Below are positions 1 through 9,383 of a stretch of DNA of 9,383 bases, in pieces (positions within the stretch are counted from its first letter, which is position 1; each line of letters begins with the position of its first letter). Source of the stretch: Zygophlyctis sp. KS116 (Eukaryota > Fungi > Chytridiomycota); NCBI GenBank assembly GCA_054661495.1, contig BAAFSQ010000350.1:1-9383 (forward strand), read 5' to 3'. The position numbers were made by a program, and so were the translations under genes. The notes beneath the pieces are model-generated. The model was not told the DNA's origin. It saw only the letters and a program-made list of their open reading frames with translations, and made no database searches.

Positions 1-2
1 AC

Positions 3-186
3 ATTGAAAATGTAACAAATCTCAAAATTAAAAATTTGAGAACAGACAATGGAGGCGAATTTACTAGTCATCAGTTTAGAGATTTCTTACAGGAATATGG
101 TATAAAGAATGAGACAACATGAGACTATACACCCCAACAAAATGGAGTTGCTGAACGCCTGAATAGGACGATTTTGGATAGAGTAC
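3..186 (+). pseudogene. Ty1/copia retrotransposon integrase core fragment (rve domain), truncated
   Basis: Frame 3 reads IENVTNLKIKNLRTDNGGEFTSHQFRDFLQEYGIKNETT*DYTPQQNGVAERLNRTILDRV. LRTDNGGEF and YTPQQNGVAERLNRT are copia-type DDE integrase motifs. In-frame TGA at 120-122; similarity stops abruptly near 186. Confidence 0.93.
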
Positions 187-210
187 CTATATTTAAATGA
201 AGATTCATAC
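187..210 (-). other. Putative 24-nt spliceosomal micro-intron
   Basis: GTATGAATCTTCATTTAAATATAG directly follows the VLEN codons and has the same GTA...TTTRAA...TAG layout as the other two. The downstream exon is lost at the junction with the copia fragment, so the frame cannot be tested. Confidence 0.45.
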
Positions 211-437
211 ATTTTCCAGTACCGTGAGTACTCCTGCTGTTCTCAGAATCATTCCAGGAAGTTTAGAGTACTCTGCATTAAGATCCTCATCTTGAGAGCT
301 ATTTCTGAGGGATGATATAGAATTAAAAATTTCATCAAACTTAAGTTGACCCAGTGATTTGTCTCATTATGACGCATAACCCTAAAAAGCTCATCTTCCA
401 TAGTTTAAATTCTACATTAAAATTAGAAATCAAGAAT

Positions 438-463
438 CTAGCTATTTAAATAAATTGAACTAC
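438..463 (-). other. Putative 26-nt spliceosomal micro-intron
   Basis: GTAGTTCAATTTATTTAAATAGCTAG. Removal joins GAA CG|A TTC TTG, restoring the Arg-finger-like motif DALLERFL. Confidence 0.62.
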
Positions 464-649
464 CGTTCAAGTAATGCGTCATGATTTGATCATGGCGGTT
501 GAGAAATTAAATTATTGTTTCTGGGTGGATAGAACCTATAAAGTTGAATGCCACTTTGTCGACCTCTGTTGCCCCCGTATTTTAGTAATATATTTTAACT
601 GGCCACCTCCGTTTAAAACTTAAATACGTGTTTCAGAGCTTATTTTCGT

Positions 650-681
650 CTATATTTCAAACATTTTCAGTTACCGTTTAC
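650..681 (-). other. Putative 32-nt spliceosomal micro-intron
   Basis: GTAAACGGTAACTGAAAATGTTTGAAATATAG. Removal joins TTC G|AC GAA (F-D-E) in frame and removes an in-frame stop. Confidence 0.55.
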
Positions 682-811
682 CGAATACAATTTGTTTAAA
701 AAAGCCTCCTACTGCTTCCCCCTTTTGCGACTGCCCATAGGATTGATTATATGTTCCCAAAGACTTCCGTGTAGGGTAAGGATGAAATCGATCCAAAACA
801 AAAAAAATTCA

Positions 812-855
812 GTGGATCAAGCTTGTTGGCTGAGAGTATCAGGTCATATGAAAAA
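812..855 (+). pseudogene. 44-bp fragment of a Ty3/gypsy integrase from a family related to element 1
   Basis: Encodes GSSLLAESIRSYEK versus GSSLLADSIKSYER at 3669-3710; 34/44 nt match 3667-3710 by hand count. Confidence 0.8.
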
Positions 856-1262
856 GGACTCAAGTAAACGGAATTAGTGAAGATCTTTGGAAGAGATACT
901 TTATTAAAGGATTACAAGATCATATACAAATTGAGGCAATTAAGTTCAATCTAGATGACCCTGAGGCATCTTTGGCCCAGATGTATCAAAGATTGACAAC
1001 TTTAGGCGATGCTTTATGGGCTCAAAAGGGTACAACTCGATCTAGAAATGATCCAATGGATTTGTCGTCAATGGAGAAGACAAATGGAAAAACATATGCG
1101 GGTTACAAAAAGACAAGAGACAAAAGCAATTTGAAATGCTTTAAATGTGGTAATTTGGGGCATTTTAGAAGAGAATGCAAAGGGAAAGAACTCAATGTTG
1201 CAGAAATAGCAGCTGAGTCGAAAGGTGATGAATCTAATGGATCAAAGCCGGGTTTTCAGTAG
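852..1262 (+). pseudogene. gag: Gag C-terminal part (capsid C-terminus plus CCHC nucleocapsid), element 1
   Basis: The frame of ORF 972-1262 is open from 852: KRTQVNGISEDLWKRYFIKGLQDHIQ...DPMDLS...CFKCGNLGHFRREC (CX2CX4HX4C at 1137-1178), stop TAG 1260-1262. No genuine start codon. Confidence 0.9.
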
Positions 1263-1297
1263 GGACATCCAAAATCCCAGATGTCTTAGAAAAGGGT
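1250..1297 (+). promoter_or_regulatory. Programmed -1 ribosomal frameshift signal between gag and pol
   Basis: G GGT TTT heptamer (1250-1256) in the gag frame, 5-nt spacer, stem GGGACATC (1262-1269)/GATGTCTT (1280-1287). The pol (-1) frame is open from 1238 and overlaps the gag stop. Confidence 0.8.
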
Positions 1298-3307
1298 AAA
1301 AAGGAAGTAAAATGGAATTTATTTCAAATTCAGGTGGTGCATACTTCTAAAGGGATGATGACAGCATTAATCGATTCAGGAGCAGAAGCTAACTTTATTA
1401 AAAAGGAAACAGCTAGGGAATTGAACTTAAATATTAAAGATGTGGATCCGGAGTTATCTATTAGAGTTGCAAATGGGGATTTGTTAAAGTCCGATGGCAG
1501 GGTGGATTTACAGGTGGATGGCAATCCGGTCGAGTTATTTGTCGCACCTATTGCTGCTAAGGCTGATCTTATCCTTGGGTTTCCTTGGATGAAAGATTAT
1601 GGTGTTCAGTTTGACTACGTTAACAATCGTATAACGTATGATAAGGATGTTCGTTCAAAAGATATTATCTCAGTAAAAGGGGTAAGAAAGTGGATAAAAA
1701 AAGCTCAATTATTGGAATTACATACTGTGGAGATAAGAGCTATAGGAGATGAAGCAGAGATTAAACAAGTGGATTCTAAAACTAGTAAAGTCAAAGAGTT
1801 AACCAAGCCAATTAAGGAGTTGCTTGGGAGATTTCCTGGTGTGTATCCAATGGAGCCGAAGCTTATTGAACCTGCTGCGGATCGAGAATTGCTAACTCAA
1901 CCGGCAATGAGGATTGATACTGGAGATGCTGAGCCAATTAAGTTGCCATATTATAAAATGGGACCTGCGGATCTCGATGAATTAAAGAAACAGTTAAAGA
2001 AGCTAATGGAGGCTAGATTGATAAGACCGAGTGTTAGTCCTTGGGGTGCTCCGGTTCTATTTGTGAAAAAGAAAGATGGTTCAAAGCGGTTATGTATTGA
2101 TTATCGGGCGTTGAACAAGGTGACTAAGGCAGATGCTTACCCAATGCCTCGAATACAGGAATCCTTGGATCAATTGTCGAAGGCAAGAATATATAGTAAG
2201 TTAGATGCAACCTGGGGGTTTTGGCAGAATCCTGTGGCAACTAAAGATGTTCCAAAGACTGCTTTTAATACTAGGTACGGTGCGTACGAATTCTAAGTGA
2301 CGCCGTTTGGTTTAAAGAACTCACCCAGTGCTTTTCAAAGAATGATGGATGAGGTTCTCAAGGAGTATATTGATGATTTTGTCATCGTTTATATCGATGA
2401 TTTATTGATTTACTCAAAGACTCTAGAAGATCATATGAAGCATTTAGAGCTGGTTTCTCAGAGATTAAAAGACTATAACATTCAAATAAATATGAAGAAG
2501 AGTGAATTTCTTCAGGAGTCAGTGATTTATTGTGGGTATAAAATAGCTCAAGGGACAGTTAGAATTGATGAAAGTAAGATAGTAGCTATAAAATCATGGC
2601 CAGTGCCGACAAATTCCAGTGCAGTAAGGTCGTTTTCGGGATTTTTGGGTTATTATCGGAAGTTTATCAAGGACTTTGGGACTTTGGCAGCTCCTTTACA
2701 TTCGATTTCAGGGACTAAATCTCAATGGAAATGGACTAGTATAGAGGAAAATTCTTTTAATGAATTAAAACAAGCTATGATAAGTGATCCAGTGTTGGTT
2801 TTCCCTGATGATGATTTGGTTTTTCATATCTGGCCAGATGCTTCTCCATGGGCTGTTGGTGGGGTATTAACTCAAGATCGTGGGACAGGACATCAACCTA
2901 TTGCATATGAATATCATAAACTTTCCAAAGCAGACTTAAATTATCCACATCATGAAAAAGAAATATTGGCAATGTTACATTGTTTGAGGAAGTGGCGGTA
3001 CTATTTTGAAGGGCGTAAATTTATTGTTCACTCAGATAATTCTACTGTAGTAAGGTTATCAACTGTTAAGGATCCTCATCGGCGATTGCAACGATGGATT
3101 CAAGAATATCAGTATTGGTCACCGGATATTGTGTATGAACCGGGGCAATTTAATCCTGCTGATGGACCTTCTAGGTTGAATATGGATACAGGGAATGATA
3201 AAGATAATGATGCATTTTCTGATCTCGATATTTTTGGTCCTTTACCAACAGATCTGGCCGTCAATCTTATAAGATTAGAGGAATGGAACATGGAAATTGA
3301 TGAATAA

Positions 3308-4478
3308 GTTGATTGGCCTTTAATTATAGCTAAGTATATTGAATATGGTAGTTGGCCAGAGGGTCTTTCTGTTGGCTGGGAAAAGTGGTGTGCTCGTGAA
3401 CTGTCGAATTTTGAAGTACATGGAGACTTGTTGTGTCGGTTAAGAGAGGGAGGAGGATCTATTCCTTACTTGCCATATAAGGAAAGATCATGTGTAGTGG
3501 AGAAATATCATGTAGCTCTTGGAGCATATTATCACTGCTATCGATTATGCAACCAGGTGGGTTGTCTGTAAGGCAGTAAAAAAAATGGATGCAAACACGG
3601 TTGCTGAATTTTTATACAATTATATTTTGATTAATTATGGTGCACCGTATGAAATATTTTCTGATCGTGGATCATCATTGTTGGCAGATAGTATCAAGAG
3701 TTATGAAAGATTACAGAAGATTAAACATCGAGCAAGTACACCTTATCATCCTCAAACAAATGGGATGGTAGAGAGAATGCATGCAATGCTAAGAGGAGTG
3801 ATTGCTAAACTAGGAGAGGGACAACCAGACAGATGGGACGAATTCTTACCTCAAGCTATATTTAGTCTCACAGTTAGAACACACGAGGTGACTAAATTCA
3901 GTCCATTCTATTTGCTTTATGGAATAGAACCTAGATTGCCTACAGACACGAATCCACTAAGGACATCAATGATGCCTTTGGATGAGATTGAACAAATGGA
4001 GGAGAGGCATGAATTTATAGCAAGAATATTTGAGGAGTTGGGATATGATAGAGCGGCTGCTTATCATAATTCAGAATCTCAGGCACTCAGAATGAAAAAA
4101 TATTATGATGATAAGAAAAAAACGGACGGAAATTATTATGAAATCAATGATTGGGTGAAATTAAAAAATTATGGAAAAACGAAGTTTGAGTTTAATTGGA
4201 AAGGACCTAATCATATAGTGGGTTACGGTATTGCACCATCTACATATTATATTATGGATTCAAATGGTAGACGATTGGATTATACAGTTGCACATGATAA
4301 TTTAGCTCCGTGGGTGGTACCTTTAGGATCAAATCAGGATTATAATTATGATCCTGTTGTTCGAGAAATTGCTGATCCAGCGCCCATTCCTTTCGGCAAA
4401 TCATGTGAAGGGCGAACTGAAAAATATAAAAGATCTAAACAAAAAATTGGCATTCCTATTCGTGTCCCCTCTAATTAA
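3308..4478 (+). pseudogene. Integrase region of element 1, lacking most of the HHCC finger and the first catalytic Asp; no chromodomain
   Basis: Frame 2 reads VDWPLIIAKY...IPYLPYKERSCVVEKYHVALG up to 3523, then frame 3 continues HIITAIDYATRW. The matching segment of element 2 (HMQ...YYWP...CPQC...WGIDF) is absent. Confidence 0.88.
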
Positions 4479-4557
4479 AATTGAATTGAATTTGGGAATT
4501 TAGGAATTTTAAAATGATGGGATATTTATATGACAGAAGAAATCTATTTATCTATTT

Positions 4558-4570
4558 AAGAGGGGGATGA
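4558..4570 (+). promoter_or_regulatory. Polypurine tract, element 1
   Basis: AAGAGGGGGATGA immediately before TGTTA, 80 nt after the pol stop. Confidence 0.85.
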
Positions 4571-4739
4571 TGTTAAATTACGACTAACATTAGACTGTAA
4601 GTCATGATCTGATTAACCGATTCAATCTAATAGTTATTTTAGGAATTCTATTTCTGAACACATCTTAAAATAGCAGTTTATAAATAGATTCTTTACCTGA
4701 ATAAACAGAATCAGACTTATCTTTACTTTGAGAATAACA
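4571..4739 (+). repeat. 3' LTR of element 1 (169 bp)
   Basis: Starts TGTTA after the PPT and ends TAACA; contains TATAAATA (4679-4686) and AATAAA (4700-4705). The partner LTR is not in the window, so the right end is inferred. Confidence 0.78.
4679..4705 (+). promoter_or_regulatory. TATA box and polyadenylation signal within LTR 1
   Basis: TATAAATA at 4679-4686 followed by AATAAA at 4700-4705, the usual order in an LTR. Confidence 0.55.
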
Positions 4740-4743
4740 CATC

Positions 4744-4860
4744 TGTTACATTTCACAAGCTGCTTTCTAATGGATGTTACATTTCACATATTTCACAAGC
4801 TGCTTTCTAATGCTTTCTATGGCTTATATTCGCTGCTTTCTAATGCTTTCCATGGCTTAT
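4744..4860 (+). repeat. Nested tandem repeats in the U3 region of LTR 2
   Basis: LTR terminus unit duplicated (4744-4774, and again from 4775); GCTGCTTTCTAATG three times (4759, 4799, 4832); 29-bp GCTGCTTTCTAATGCTTTCYATGGCTTAT twice with period 33; ATTTCACA microrepeat with period 9. Confidence 0.92.
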
Positions 4861-5032
4861 CTTCTCATTCACGTGTTGTTTCTAAGCTCAAATGATCTTA
4901 AGTGTATAGGAATTGGTTGTCTTGTTAACAAAGCTCATCTCTTTTTGATCCTTGTTAATTCTGTCTACTGAGTTCTATATCTGTATTTGAACTTATCTAT
5001 TTCTTAGTCTTCCTCGCTCCTGCTTCGTAACA
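4744..5032 (+). repeat. 5' LTR of element 2 (289 bp)
   Basis: TGTTAC...GTAACA 6-bp terminal inverted repeat. 4744-4810 matches 9308-9383 exactly apart from one 9-nt indel. Confidence 0.88.
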
Positions 5033-5034
5033 GT

Positions 5035-5044
5035 TTAACAAGAC
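5035..5044 (+). promoter_or_regulatory. Candidate self-priming primer-binding site (Tf1/sushi type)
   Basis: TTAACAAGAC, 2 nt after the LTR end, is the exact reverse complement of GTCTTGTTAA at 4919-4928 inside the LTR. There is no TGG-initiated tRNA site here. Confidence 0.65.
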
Positions 5045-5076
5045 CACAAAAAAAAATTATACTTTGCCTAGCTGTA

Positions 5077-6280
5077 ATGGACGAATTACCTTTTAATCGC
5101 CCGGGGACCCCCGTGTCCTCACAGAATATTGATCCCGCCTTGATTCAACAAATGTTGGTGGCTCTTACGAACCTTCAAATTCAAGCTCATGAATCACTTT
5201 GCACGGGATCCTAAGGTGCCGGATGTTCAGACCTTCAATGGACTTTTATCCCTCTCTCAAGGGGATAGGCAAACAGTTCTTGCTTATTGGACTCGGTTTT
5301 CCGAACTTAGGTCAGATATATCTCCAGGATCAGCACGCCCATTGTTTGAAAGAGGACTCAAGGATTTGCCTGAAGACTTAGATGGATTTGTGAGTGCTGT
5401 GGTGGAATTGGATAATCGTCTGAATCGTCTGAGAGAGGATCGTAAGGGAACTCATGGACAAAGTCAGTCTCGAGAGAAGTTTGGAATGTTTCGCAGGCCC
5501 ATGAATACTGCACATAAAGGTCCTACTCCTATGGAACTTGGGAATGTTGAAACTCAGGAAGAGGAAATTGTGAATGGAGTTGTTCTTTCAAATGGTAGAG
5601 AGAGGCTGGATGAAATCAGGATGATGGAACCAGCTATGCGTAGAAGAATTTGTATGGAGGAAAATCGATGTCACTATTGCAAAAGAGTAGTTGGTAATCC
5701 CCCTGCGCATTTAGCACGTACTTGCCCTTTGAACAAAAATAAAAGAACTGATTTCTATTCTGCTTTTTCTCGTGAGGATGGGCCTCAGAGGACATGGTTA
5801 CCAAAAAACTCTGCCTTGGAATTATCTGTGAACGTAGTATCGGAGGGAAATTCAAATTTACTTGTGAAGCATGGGAAATTGTCCGTTGGGAATTCTACAG
5901 TGGATGTAGACATTATGTTTGATTCGGGTGCCATGGGGAACGCATATATTGACCGTACTTATGCTGAGGATCATGGGTTTGCTTTCAAGGAAATTTGTCG
6001 CACAATAAAAGTTAAGTCCATAGATGGAAGCGAATGTGGTCCCGGGAAAATAGAATTCTTTGTAGAAGGAATAATCCGCTTTGAAGTTTTTTCTGAAGAA
6101 ATCAAGCTAATGGTGATAGAATCTCCTCGACATTCAATTCATGATGTATTTTCGACGTCTGAATTTCCTGCTCTACCACCTTCCCGAAAAGAGTCAGATC
6201 TGGCAATCGAGCTCGAGGATGGAAAAACGCCTCCCTTTGGTCCAATTTACTCTCTAAGGGTTCAGGAGGAAGTGGATTAA
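5077..6280 (+). pseudogene. gag: Gag plus aspartic protease, element 2
   Basis: ATG 5077 (MDELPFNRPG...QAHESL), frameshift near 5200 into ARDPKVPDVQTFNG...FERGLK...GPTPMELG; zinc knuckle 5669-5725; protease MFDSGA (D at 5921) in the same frame. A 1-nt deletion near 6276 creates TAA at 6278-6280. Confidence 0.9.
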
Positions 6281-6858
6281 AAAGATATCTTGATGGTGCT
6301 TTGGCGGCTGGCATAATCAGAAAATCTAAGTCTCCTGCGGGTGCTCCTGTCATGTTCGTCAAAAAATCAGACGGTTCGTTAAGGCTCTGTGTGGACTACC
6401 GAGGTCTTAATAACATAACCAAGACGAATCGTGCAGCTCTGCCTATCATCCGGGATATGCTGTTCAGAGCAAATGGAGCTAAGTACTATTCAAAGGTGGA
6501 TCTGAAGAGTGCTTTCAATCTGATTAGAATCTTTCGGGGACATGAATACATCACGGCTTTTTGAACTAAATACGGGCACTTTGAATATTCGGTAAAACCT
6601 TTTGGTCTTAAGAATGCTCCTGGGCAATTTCAGACTTTTATGAATTCTATTTTTGGCGATCTTATTGATAGAGGAGTTCTTGTATACATAGATGATTTAT
6701 TAATATACTCCGCATCAAAGGAGAGTCATGACAAACTTCTCTTAGACGTGTTCGATCGACTCCGTCGGAATGATCTAAAGGCTAACCCCAAGAAATGTTC
6801 ATTCTACCAGCCCCGTATGGAGTTTCTAGGTCATGTGATATCCGATGAAGGAGTGTAA
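6277..6858 (+). pseudogene. pol: Reverse transcriptase core, element 2
   Basis: LKRYLDGALAAGIIRKSKSPAGAPVMFVKKSDGSLRLCVDYRGLN...TAF*TKYGHFEY..PFGLKNAP...YIDD (6685-6696). Stops at 6562-6564 (TGA where Arg is expected) and 6856-6858. Confidence 0.95.
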
Positions 6859-9099
6859 ATGGATGTCACTAAACTCAAGTCAATACAGGATTGGAAGTCT
6901 CCGGTGAACGTCAAGGAATTGCAATCATTCTTGGGACTCTGTAATTATTATCGAGACTTCATTCCTAGATTTTCAGATATAGCGGGCCCACTATATATGC
7001 TTACAAGGAAGGATTCTCCTTATTTATGGTCTTCAGAATGTCAGCAAGCTTTTGACTGTATCAAGTTATCCTTTCGCACCAATCGTGTTTTAATCCAGCC
7101 AGATAGAGCGAAACAGTTTTTCCTTGAATGTGATGCTTCTGATTATGCTTTAGGAGCAGTAATTAGCCAGCTGGACGACAATGGAAAATTGCGGCCTATC
7201 GGATTTTATTCTAGAAAATTTACCCCGGCAGAGGTCAACTATGAAATATACGACAAAGAGTTGTGGGCTATAATTGAAGGATTGAAAAATTGGAGGCATT
7301 ACTGTATTGGTACGGAATTGGCAGTAAAGGTGTTCACCGATCATAAAAACTTGAAATATTTCAGTTCTTCTCGGCATCTTAATCGCCGCCAAGCTAGATG
7401 GAGTCTTTTCTTGGCGGATTACAACTTTGAAATTATTGTCAGACCAGGAAAAGAACAGGTTGTATCTGACGCACTCTCTCGCCAGGAGTCATTACAAATA
7501 CAGCCCGAGGATGAAGAGTTCAAGGTCAACGAAAAGATATTGTTACCTGCAGATAAGTTTTTGAATAAGGGACGTAGTTCCGATTTTTTGCCAATGAAAT
7601 TAAAAGATAGTGCAAAACTAAATATGATGGAGGTTTCCGAGGATGATTCTGTTTTACCCTCAAATTCGGATTATGATGTCGCAGATTATCAATCCCTTGT
7701 AAGTGAAGAAACTGAATTTGACGAGGATAACGTCTCAGCAGTGGGTGACGTTAGCCAATATATGGAGTTGGAGGGACAAACTGCGAGCGATGATCCTCCC
7801 TGGTTTAAACGTTTGCTACAATATCTCTGGAACGGCGGCCTTCCCATGGTTTTGCCAATGCCCAGGCTCAAGAAAATCAAATCTTTGTCTAATTCCTTTA
7901 TCTTCAAAGACGATCGCCTTTATAGAAAAGTGAACAGAAATCAGCAGCTGTACCATGTCCCTTATGTGCCATTCGTTGAAAGAGATGCTATAATCAGTAA
8001 ATACCACTCAATTTTGGGACATATGCAAGTCAATACACTTCTGCCGTTACTTGAAATTCGCTATTACTGGCCATGTTTAGAGAATGATATTAAAAAGTTT
8101 CAGAATTCTTGTCCGCAGTGTCAGTTGAATAGTAGTTCACAAGCGATAGATCTCAGACCCCCTTCAGCCCCAGGTATTCCTTTCATGAAATGGGGCATTG
8201 ATTTCGTCCAAGATTTACCACCCGTGGACGAATATGGCAATTTGGTATCGGCAAATGGCTTCTGTAATATATTTTCAGCCCTTTGCTATGCTACAAAGAG
8301 GGTTATTTACGTTGCTACTAAAAATAGGGATGCCAAAACGGCAGCCGAGTGTATATTCCGTGAAATTGTGTGTAAGTATGGCAGCCCTGTTGAAATTGTC
8401 TCAGATCGGGGATTCATGGATACTGTTTTGCGTGAGTACATGAAAGTTTTGGAAATTCATCATTTACCCTCGGCTGCATATACGCCTAGGACGAATGGAC
8501 TGGATGAGCGGGGTCATAGAGATTTAAAGAATATTATCACTAAGCTAAGTAATGGGGACCCGAGAAAATGGATTAGGATTCTACCTTTGGCTGAATTCAT
8601 CATGAATGCAAGAATCAGTAACAGTACTGGATTTTCGGCTTACTTCTTAAGTCATGGATTCGAGCCTAGACTTCCAGCAGACGAACTACCGATGTTACCT
8701 CCTAACTTTTTTGATTTGACTGATTCTGTAGACGCTGCTAACTACTCCGCTCAAACACTTGCAAAGTTGGGGCAGAACAGGGCAGCTGCTCTTCAAAAGC
8801 TCAAGGTGCAAGCTATTAAGATGAAATTCTATTATGATCGTAAGGTAGGGGTGTCAGATCACGTTTGGAAAGATGGAGATGTGGTGAAGCTTAAAAATCA
8901 TTCTAAAAGTCGGTTCAAGTTTCCTTGGTTAGGCCCTTTTTGTGGTACATCATGGTCCGAATGACACCTATTTTTTGCAGCGACCCGATGGTAGACGATG
9001 GACATTAGTACTCCATTGAATCCCGACCATTTGGCTTCATACACTGAATTTGACGGTGAGTATTATTATGATGGGAATCATTCAAGCACCAGCAATTAA
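6859..9099 (+). pseudogene. pol: RT connection, RNase H, acidic linker and integrase, element 2; no chromodomain
   Basis: RNase H ECDASDYALG...YDKEL...TDHKNL; integrase YH...GH...CPQC, WGIDF, SDRG, TNGLDER, WLGPF. Beyond the called ORF, two frameshifts (~8941, ~9008) extend it: VVHHGPNDTYFLQRPDGRRWT / TPLNPDHLASYTEFDGEYYYDGNHSSTSN, stop 9097-9099. Confidence 0.93.
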
Positions 9100-9292
9100 A
9101 TATTCATACGAGTAAGTTTATTGAAAAATAGTTTTCGGAATTTCTTGGTTTCTCATGATGGAAAGAAATGATCTCTTTGGATAATGATGCTTCCTTAACG
9201 AGGTTTTGGTAGTTCAGATTCGATTTCCTCTTGGTTTTTATACACTTTTCCCAAGAGGTTTTTATCAGTAAATCTGGCCAAACAATTAATCT

Positions 9293-9307
9293 AAAAAGGG
9301 GAGGTGA
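9293..9307 (+). promoter_or_regulatory. Polypurine tract, element 2
   Basis: AAAAAGGGGAGGTGA directly before the 3' LTR TGTTAC. Confidence 0.9.
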
Positions 9308-9383
9308 TGTTACATTTCACATATTTCACAAGCTGCTTTCTAATGGATGTTACATTTCACATATTTCACAAGCTGCTTTCTAA
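9308..9383 (+). repeat. 3' LTR of element 2 (partial), made of a 40-bp tandem unit
   Basis: TGTTACATTTCACATATTTCACAAGCTGCTTTCTAATGGA followed by 36 nt of an identical second copy; matches the 5' LTR start. Confidence 0.93.

What the first reader, a model, noticed from the sequence alone, without database searches (positions are those of the whole stretch)
187..810. Hidden spliced DUF3987/YfjI-like helicase relic in a eukaryotic transposon nest
Seen: minus-strand peptides occur in collinear order: SLWEHIINPMGSRK, EAVGGFFKQI, NTYLS/LNGGGQLKYITKIRG, VAFNFIGSIHPE, HDALLERFLI, AEYSKLPGMILRTAGVL. Knowledge, from memory: this order fits DUF3987/YfjI proteins, MCM-related AAA+ domains best known from replication modules of prokaryotic phages, plasmids and integrative elements. 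Inference: a copy that acquired spliceosomal introns and then decayed among transposons could be the replicase of an uncharacterised eukaryotic DNA mobile element or endogenous virus-like family, or a domesticated horizontal transfer. This is the best candidate for an undescribed system in the window.
Basis: partly seen in the sequence, partly recalled or inferred. Interest (0 to 1): 0.8.

Follow-up and report, generated by a model that had tools for sequence, protein, structure and literature searches.

The report
Dead helicase gene from Mutator transposon
This 600-base scrap is a broken, partly deleted copy of a spliced gene for a phage-type helicase-family protein, and a related gene sits directly in front of a likely Mutator-type transposase in what appears to be the same organism, so the scrap is likely debris of a two-gene jumping element rather than of a virus.

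Summary
The peptides are real and collinear. The last exon (363-205) hits Pfam DUF3987 (E 7.8e-4, below cut-off). Against a bacterial DUF3987 profile, the whole stretch outscores all 300 shuffles; the upstream part alone is weak. The copy is dead: two stops, several frameshifts, about 110 residues with Walker B missing, no 3' end. Assembled contigs carry the same breaks. A tiny intron (210-187) is shared with relative L001, and six protein fragments fit it. In L001 a DUF3987 gene ends 36 bases before a second gene that resembles a Mutator (MULE) transposase (Atlas, lead level only). One contig from a run that holds the window covers both genes collinearly at 86-90% identity, with frame-keeping changes; an independent lake study holds the same unit. 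At least four DUF3987 lineages occur in these runs. Best reading: a relic of the helper gene of a two-gene Mutator-type DNA transposon. Element ends, full DDE core and mobility are untested, and the relic's own partner is inferred. I found no such pairing in the library searches named. This scan noted similar pairings before on other DNA (dinoflagellate, foraminiferan, Rozella, animals); I did not check those notes.

The parts
688..798 (-). Walker A region of the DUF3987 relic, with one frameshift near 722
   Evidence: aligns to profile positions 37-62, conditional E 0.01 on its own
650..681 (-). 32-nt GT-AG stretch; likely a hybrid intron at a deletion that removed about 110 residues including Walker B
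   Evidence: profile 63-176 has no counterpart; the Walker B-like DE lies near profile position 158
464..649 (-). middle block up to the arginine-finger-like LER/F motif; 2 in-frame stops, 3 frameshifts
   Evidence: aligns to profile 177-241; motif name recalled
438..463 (-). 26-nt GT-AG intron candidate
   Evidence: the next exon matches P0025 at 7 of 10 residues
364..437 (-). eroded exon piece with small deletions
   Evidence: short matches to P0025 and P0023; about 7 residues shorter than P0023 before the last exon
211..363 (-). best-kept exon, C-terminal helical part of DUF3987
   Evidence: Pfam E 7.8e-4; 6 relatives at 48-94% identity; against L001 12 identical, 15 synonymous, 13 changed codons of 40
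187..210 (-). 24-nt GT-AG intron, same site as the 26-nt intron of L001; the gene is cut off just behind it
   Evidence: Val (GT donor) invariant in 7 of 7 aligned rows
1..185 (+). left flank: retrotransposon integrase scrap (Copia-like by recalled motif), repeated in the runs
   Evidence: Pfam rve E 1.9e-7; contig graph branches near 185
809..853 (+). right flank: Ty3 integrase scrap, followed by Ty3 gag from 854
   Evidence: matches window 3667-3708 at 34 of 42 bases

Best explanation
The stretch 187-800 is a dead, internally deleted copy of a spliced DUF3987 gene, and it is likely left over from a two-gene Mutator-type DNA transposon in which that gene would serve as a helicase helper in front of the transposase. 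Shown: family identity, decay, a conserved tiny intron, several lineages in the runs that hold the window, and one lineage on a single contig with a second gene in tandem. At lead level: that second gene is a MULE transposase. Inferred: the unit has ends and moves; this relic's own lineage had the same partner. Mechanism I favour (inferred, about 0.4 given the pairing): the transposase cuts and joins the ends, and the ring ATPase unwinds element DNA so that host polymerases restore or duplicate the donor copy, which raises copy number. The alternative is a target-choosing or activating ATPase like MuB, TnsC or IstB (recalled). This copy can do neither: it lacks Walker B and its 3' end.
For: L001 holds the 3' part of a DUF3987 gene (71% to P0023; 209 open codons after three 25-27-nt introns, stop at 708), then a second gene from 745 on the same strand. 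Atlas neighbours of that gene's first ORF are all eukaryotic; of 9 feature rows shown, 6 carry MULE, FAR1, ZSWIM or GCM names or families and a seventh ALS2CR8, at 0.81-0.87; by structure TM 0.50 to a 'MULE transposase domain' cluster and 0.56 to a FAR1-related cluster. After a 25-nt intron comes a first-Asp-like catalytic motif (motif recalled). In run X2 one 3537-nt contig covers L001 1-666 (67 differences) and 742-1693 (135 differences) collinearly; X1 and the separate lake study X7 hold the same unit in two overlapping contigs each. Its listed length changes keep the frame or fall in a predicted intron, and 19 of 33 listed exon differences are third-position (p 0.004; only 40 of 212 differences were listed). 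Its depth is 9.5 times (X2) and about 6 times (X1) that of the relic's contig. A bacterial DUF3987 protein is an oligomeric ATP-dependent 5'-3' helicase (PMC11724360, passages).
Against: No transposase, terminal repeat or target duplication lies beside the relic; both flanks are retrotransposon scraps. The MULE call rests on Atlas scores under 0.9 (lead level) and a recalled motif; Pfam gave no MULE hit on L001. The pairing is shown for 1 of 4 DUF3987 lineages. A second lineage (2837/2848-nt contigs) runs about 330-355 nt past its last match with no 80% match to the second gene. The lineage closest to the relic by DNA (3.4-4.1-kb contigs, 55 of 63 bases) has unread downstream DNA. Contig depth is no copy number: that lineage reads 10, 1.1 and 0.8 times the relic in three runs. 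X1-X3 may be the source of the window. That all contigs belong to one organism is inferred from their co-occurrence, including in the small 14-Mb run X2.
Confidence: 0.65

Rival explanations
1. The DUF3987 gene is mobile cargo that pairs with various elements. The relic's lineage rode another transposon type, or the tandem with the MULE-like gene is a capture without any role in transposition.
For: Only 1 of 4 lineages is shown paired. MULEs often pick up extra ORFs and host fragments (PMC6446971 passages). Unchecked notes of this scan place DUF3987 beside Merlin and KDZ transposases too.
Against: The pair is kept in two versions 10-14% apart with frame-keeping changes and third-position bias, and only 36 nt separate the genes; passive fragments are expected to decay.
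Confidence: 0.2
2. A domesticated host gene family of old horizontal origin; this stretch is an ordinary pseudogene.
For: Conserved intron position and synonymous-rich divergence show long selection in a eukaryote.
Against: At least four divergent lineages in one small run, tight tandem with a transposase-like gene, and a copy stranded among retrotransposon scraps.
Confidence: 0.08
3. The replicase of an endogenous virus-like or self-replicating element.
For: In phages and bacterial mobile elements DUF3987 is a replicative SF6 helicase, usually beside or fused to a primase (PMC4889955 and PMC11724360 passages). The DNA upstream of the gene in intact relatives could not be read, so a primase there is not excluded.
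Against: No primase, polymerase or capsid gene in the window or in L001. The downstream neighbour resembles a MULE. PMC4889955 reported no SF6 helicase in eukaryotic viruses as of 2016.
Confidence: 0.07

Closest known systems
DUF3987 / YfjI-like SF6 helicases (Pfam PF13148); characterised member AgaPH (PMC11724360)
   Same: Pfam match on the last exon; Walker A, middle and C-terminal blocks collinear with a bacterial profile
   Different: eukaryotic, with 24-32-nt introns; no primase seen; this copy lacks Walker B and the 3' end; neighbour in the relative is transposase-like
Two-ORF Mutator elements: MuDR (mudrA/mudrB), Mutyl (mutA/mutB), Hiun/VANDAL (PMC6446971 passages)
   Same: a likely MULE transposase with a second gene in the same unit
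   Different: the second gene is a DUF3987 ATPase; the main text of that survey has 0 occurrences of 'helicase'; ends and target duplications not seen here
AcademH and KolobokH, DNA transposons that carry a helicase (as summarised in PMC10799480; original paper not held)
   Same: cut-and-paste transposase accompanied by a helicase gene, in fungi and animals
   Different: their helicases are DEAD/Helicase_C type, not an MCM-related SF6 ring, and the transposase superfamily differs

Membership tests
DUF3987 (PF13148) | profile match over the curated cut-off (27 bits) | tested here: inconclusive
   52-aa fragment 19.2 bits, E 7.8e-4, only family hit; closest relative P0023 24.6 bits; 6 of 6 true relatives and L001 hit the same family, all under the cut-off as fragments
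DUF3987 (PF13148) | collinear AAA+ blocks | tested here: met
   three blocks in order; 0 of 300 shuffles and 0 of 26 tiles reach the score; upstream part alone weak (7 of 300, 4 of 40)
DUF3987 (PF13148) | Walker A motif | tested here: inconclusive
   765-724 aligns to profile 37-62 at conditional E 0.01, with a frameshift right after the Lys
DUF3987 (PF13148) | Walker B motif | tested here: not met
   profile 63-176 is absent from this copy; read as a deletion, not as another family
DUF3987 (PF13148) | C-terminal winged-helix domain (PMC4889955) | tested here: inconclusive
   cut off in the window; L001 has an open tail of fitting size without Pfam hit
DUF3987 (PF13148) | ATP-dependent helicase activity | not testable with these tools
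   shown only for bacterial AgaPH (PMC11724360 passages)
Mutator/MULE transposon (unit in L001 and host runs) | [quoted passage not shown] | tested here: inconclusive
   Atlas 0.81-0.87 and TM about 0.5 to FAR1/MULE clusters; no Pfam hit
Mutator/MULE transposon (unit in L001 and host runs) | DDE triad with CxxH and Trp (PMC5225508 passages) | tested here: inconclusive
   only a first-Asp-like motif lies in L001, with two stops beside it; an IS256 profile did not match; the rest lies on contigs I could not read
Mutator/MULE transposon (unit in L001 and host runs) | terminal inverted repeats and 8-11-bp target duplication (PMC6446971) | not testable with these tools
   no host assembly; no inverted pair frames the relic in the window
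Mutator/MULE transposon (unit in L001 and host runs) | dispersed multiple copies | tested here: inconclusive
   depth 6-9.5 times the relic in two runs, but depth is noisy and no copy number
Endogenous virus / Polinton-like element | capsid, polymerase or primase genes nearby | tested here: inconclusive
   none in the window or L001; upstream DNA of intact relatives unread

The most novel reading that the evidence does not exclude
A lineage of uncultured freshwater microbial eukaryotes with tiny introns hosts several families of two-gene Mutator elements that carry their own MCM-related ring helicase and use it to copy themselves during transposition. This would be one branch of a eukaryote-wide, undescribed class of helicase-assisted DDE transposons.
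Probability: 0.3. Interest if true: 0.75.

Novelty: new variant of a known kind. Interest (0 to 1): 0.5.

Why it matters
DUF3987 helicases are described from phages and bacterial mobile elements. A spliced, selected form tied to a eukaryotic Mutator transposase would explain why the family occurs in eukaryotes and would add a second kind of helicase-carrying cut-and-paste element beside AcademH and KolobokH. It would make one question testable: whether a transposon-borne motor turns cut-and-paste into copy-gaining transposition. The window's own copy is useless for that; the better-kept lineage in runs X1, X2 and X7 is the place to look.

Tried and rejected
No host assembly. Word-index protein searches found nothing for the last exon (10 candidates) or the L001 catalytic piece (8 candidates). 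Viral contigs: no relative of the exon, of alignment A1 or of the L001 second gene; phage tblastn no match; these blanks are weak. Dropped as chance: P0028 (1 of 7 hits, a repetitive plant protein), L002-L008 (7 of 8 metagenome loci; 4 of the 7 translated, all one GC-rich bacterial protein) and L009 (same alignment span and identity, not translated). A motif scan of viral contigs gave 3 of 3 unrelated hits. For the L001 second gene: Pfam, NCBIfam, PHROGs and PDB sequence searches gave nothing useful; a 24-sequence IS256 profile did not match; single-sequence models were poor (pLDDT 39.5 and 53.8) and fold searches uninformative. Sequencing error as the cause of the breaks is rejected: one 728-nt contig over 156-883 has 0 differences and 0 gaps in 3 of 4 runs laid, which may be the source data; the fourth, X4, has two short identical pieces. 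No RNA holder was listed. X6 laid 0 contigs on L001. The MULE alignment files of PMC6446971 could not be read; its readable archive holds trees only. One piece of my hand model (397-365) was in the wrong frame by P0023 and lies outside the aligned blocks. No Atlas result was obtained for a DUF3987 fragment. A paper search on host intron size gave nothing relevant.

Full report
Observation. The listed peptides lie on the minus strand in the stated order between 765 and 226; one needs the intron 463-438. The last exon (363-205) hits Pfam DUF3987 alone, E 7.8e-4, 19.2 bits against a cut-off of 27. I built a profile from 17 of the 26 bacterial matches found in 23 of 401 genomes, keeping the long ones. 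A hand model with X at each break aligns in three ordered blocks: profile 37-62, 177-241 and 307-338. Because hand-picked frame changes inflate scores, I also ran an alignment that pays for frameshifts, introns and deletions. The full stretch scores 27.9 bits; 0 of 300 shuffles (maximum 20.9) and 0 of 26 tiles reach that. The part 810-400 alone scores 17.6, reached by 7 of 300 shuffles and 4 of 40 tiles, so it leans on the last exon.

State of the copy. It has two in-frame stops, five breaks that are not introns, and no counterpart to profile 63-176, which holds the Walker B region. It is also shorter than its closest relative P0023 before the last exon and ends just behind the intron 210-187. 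One 728-nt contig spanning 156-883 is identical to the window in X1, X2 and X3, so the breaks are in the DNA; these runs may be the window's source. The flanks are an integrase scrap (1-185), a Ty3 integrase scrap (809-853) and a Ty3 element from 854. No ends of a DNA element survive.

Introns. A search of 1.84 billion representatives gave 7 hits, 6 of them true relatives at 48-94% identity. All six are short gene-caller fragments. Two stop exactly at the residue where the window's intron 210-187 begins, one stops a residue later, and three run on with dissimilar residues; the Val read from the GT donor is invariant. L001 has a 26-nt GT-AG intron at the same site and others of 27, 25 and 25 nt. 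No RNA was available, so splicing is inferred from sequence.

Context in a relative. L001 (1 true locus of 8) carries the 3' part of the gene, open for 209 codons to a stop at 708, and a second gene from 745 on the same strand. The Atlas places its first ORF among eukaryotic FAR1, MULE, GCM and ZSWIM clusters, mostly fungal, at 0.81-0.87, and by structure at TM 0.50 to a MULE transposase cluster. The tool calls scores under 0.9 leads. After a 25-nt intron follows a stretch that I recognise from memory as the first catalytic motif of fungal MULEs; it has two stops in L001. Pfam, NCBIfam, PHROGs, an IS256 profile and folding did not confirm it.

Context in the host. Laying four runs on L001: in X2 one 3537-nt contig covers 1-666 and 742-1693 in order and runs 1545 nt further; X1 and the separate study X7 hold the same unit in two overlapping contigs each; X6 laid nothing. 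Listed length changes are 3-base, compensating, or inside the predicted second intron. Of 40 listed substitutions (of 212), 33 are exonic and 19 of these third-position (p 0.004). Depth is 6-9.5 times that of the relic's contig, a noisy measure. The pairing is shown for one of the four.

Host. Unknown. It is AT-rich, has 24-32-nt introns, and its DNA occurs in freshwater and estuary runs. All 14 relatives of a Ty3 protein lack an organism name. An early-branching fungus or relative is my guess, from the Atlas taxa and intron size; I did not test it.

Mechanism. Established: a bacterial DUF3987 protein is an oligomeric, ATP-driven 5'-3' helicase that works with a primase-polymerase (PMC11724360, passages); the family is a distant MCM relative (PMC4889955, passages); MULE transposases cut and paste with a DDE core (PMC5225508, passages). 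Inferred: in the two-gene unit the helicase unwinds element DNA so that the donor is restored or duplicated. A target-choosing or activating role is the main alternative. The window copy is inactive either way.

Comparison with print. 'DUF3987' gave 13 papers, all on prokaryotes, their phages or DNA viruses by title and start of abstract; 'PF13148' 2; 'YfjI' with 'eukaryot' and 'transposon' 0; 'MCM-like helicase' occurred in none of 15 listed of 115 papers; a Mutator-helicase-fungi search gave 18 papers, of which I read passages of three without finding this pairing (PMC5751038, PMC6431247, bioRxiv 2021.03.30.436303). Of PMC6446971 I read passages, part 1 of section 6 and part of one supplement; its two FASTA supplements were unreadable and might hold related transposases. 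AcademH and KolobokH I know from passages of PMC10799480. Subscription journals and Repbase were not searched.

Earlier notes of this scan reported DUF3987 beside Mutator, Merlin and KDZ transposases in other genomes. They prompted me to look for a transposase; I did not check their loci and do not count them as support.

Verdict. A real, dead DUF3987 relic; likely from a two-gene Mutator-type element (0.65); new variant of a known kind; interest 0.5.

Noticed in passing
window 854-4740: Decayed Ty3-type retrotransposon lacking its 5' part: gag zinc knuckle, protease, RT, RNase H, integrase, with stops and frameshifts; purine tract near 4560.
   Followed up: partly
window 4745-9383: Second, different Ty3-type element with matching LTR starts at about 4745 and 9307, apparently inserted in the 3' LTR of the first; short 33-40-nt repeats inside the LTR; the gag-protease frame has no Pfam hit. 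A 97% identical relative (P0001) exists.
   Followed up: partly
window 1-860: Four unrelated scraps are joined without spacers (integrase, DUF3987, Ty3 integrase, Ty3 gag), which suggests strong erosion by deletion in this genome.
   Followed up: partly
L001 1694-2114: L001 departs here from the contigs of three runs, which all continue with the same other sequence; likely an insertion or rearrangement in L001.
   Followed up: no
L016 and L050 (G056 contig C5, 147332-151093): A bacterial DUF3987 gene lies about 2.5 kb from an IS256/MULE-type transposase; the genome has at least 30 such matches, so probably chance.
   Followed up: no
L011 1-1651: Chance hit of my motif scan; one long frame looks like an RNA-virus polymerase (recalled motifs).
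   Followed up: no
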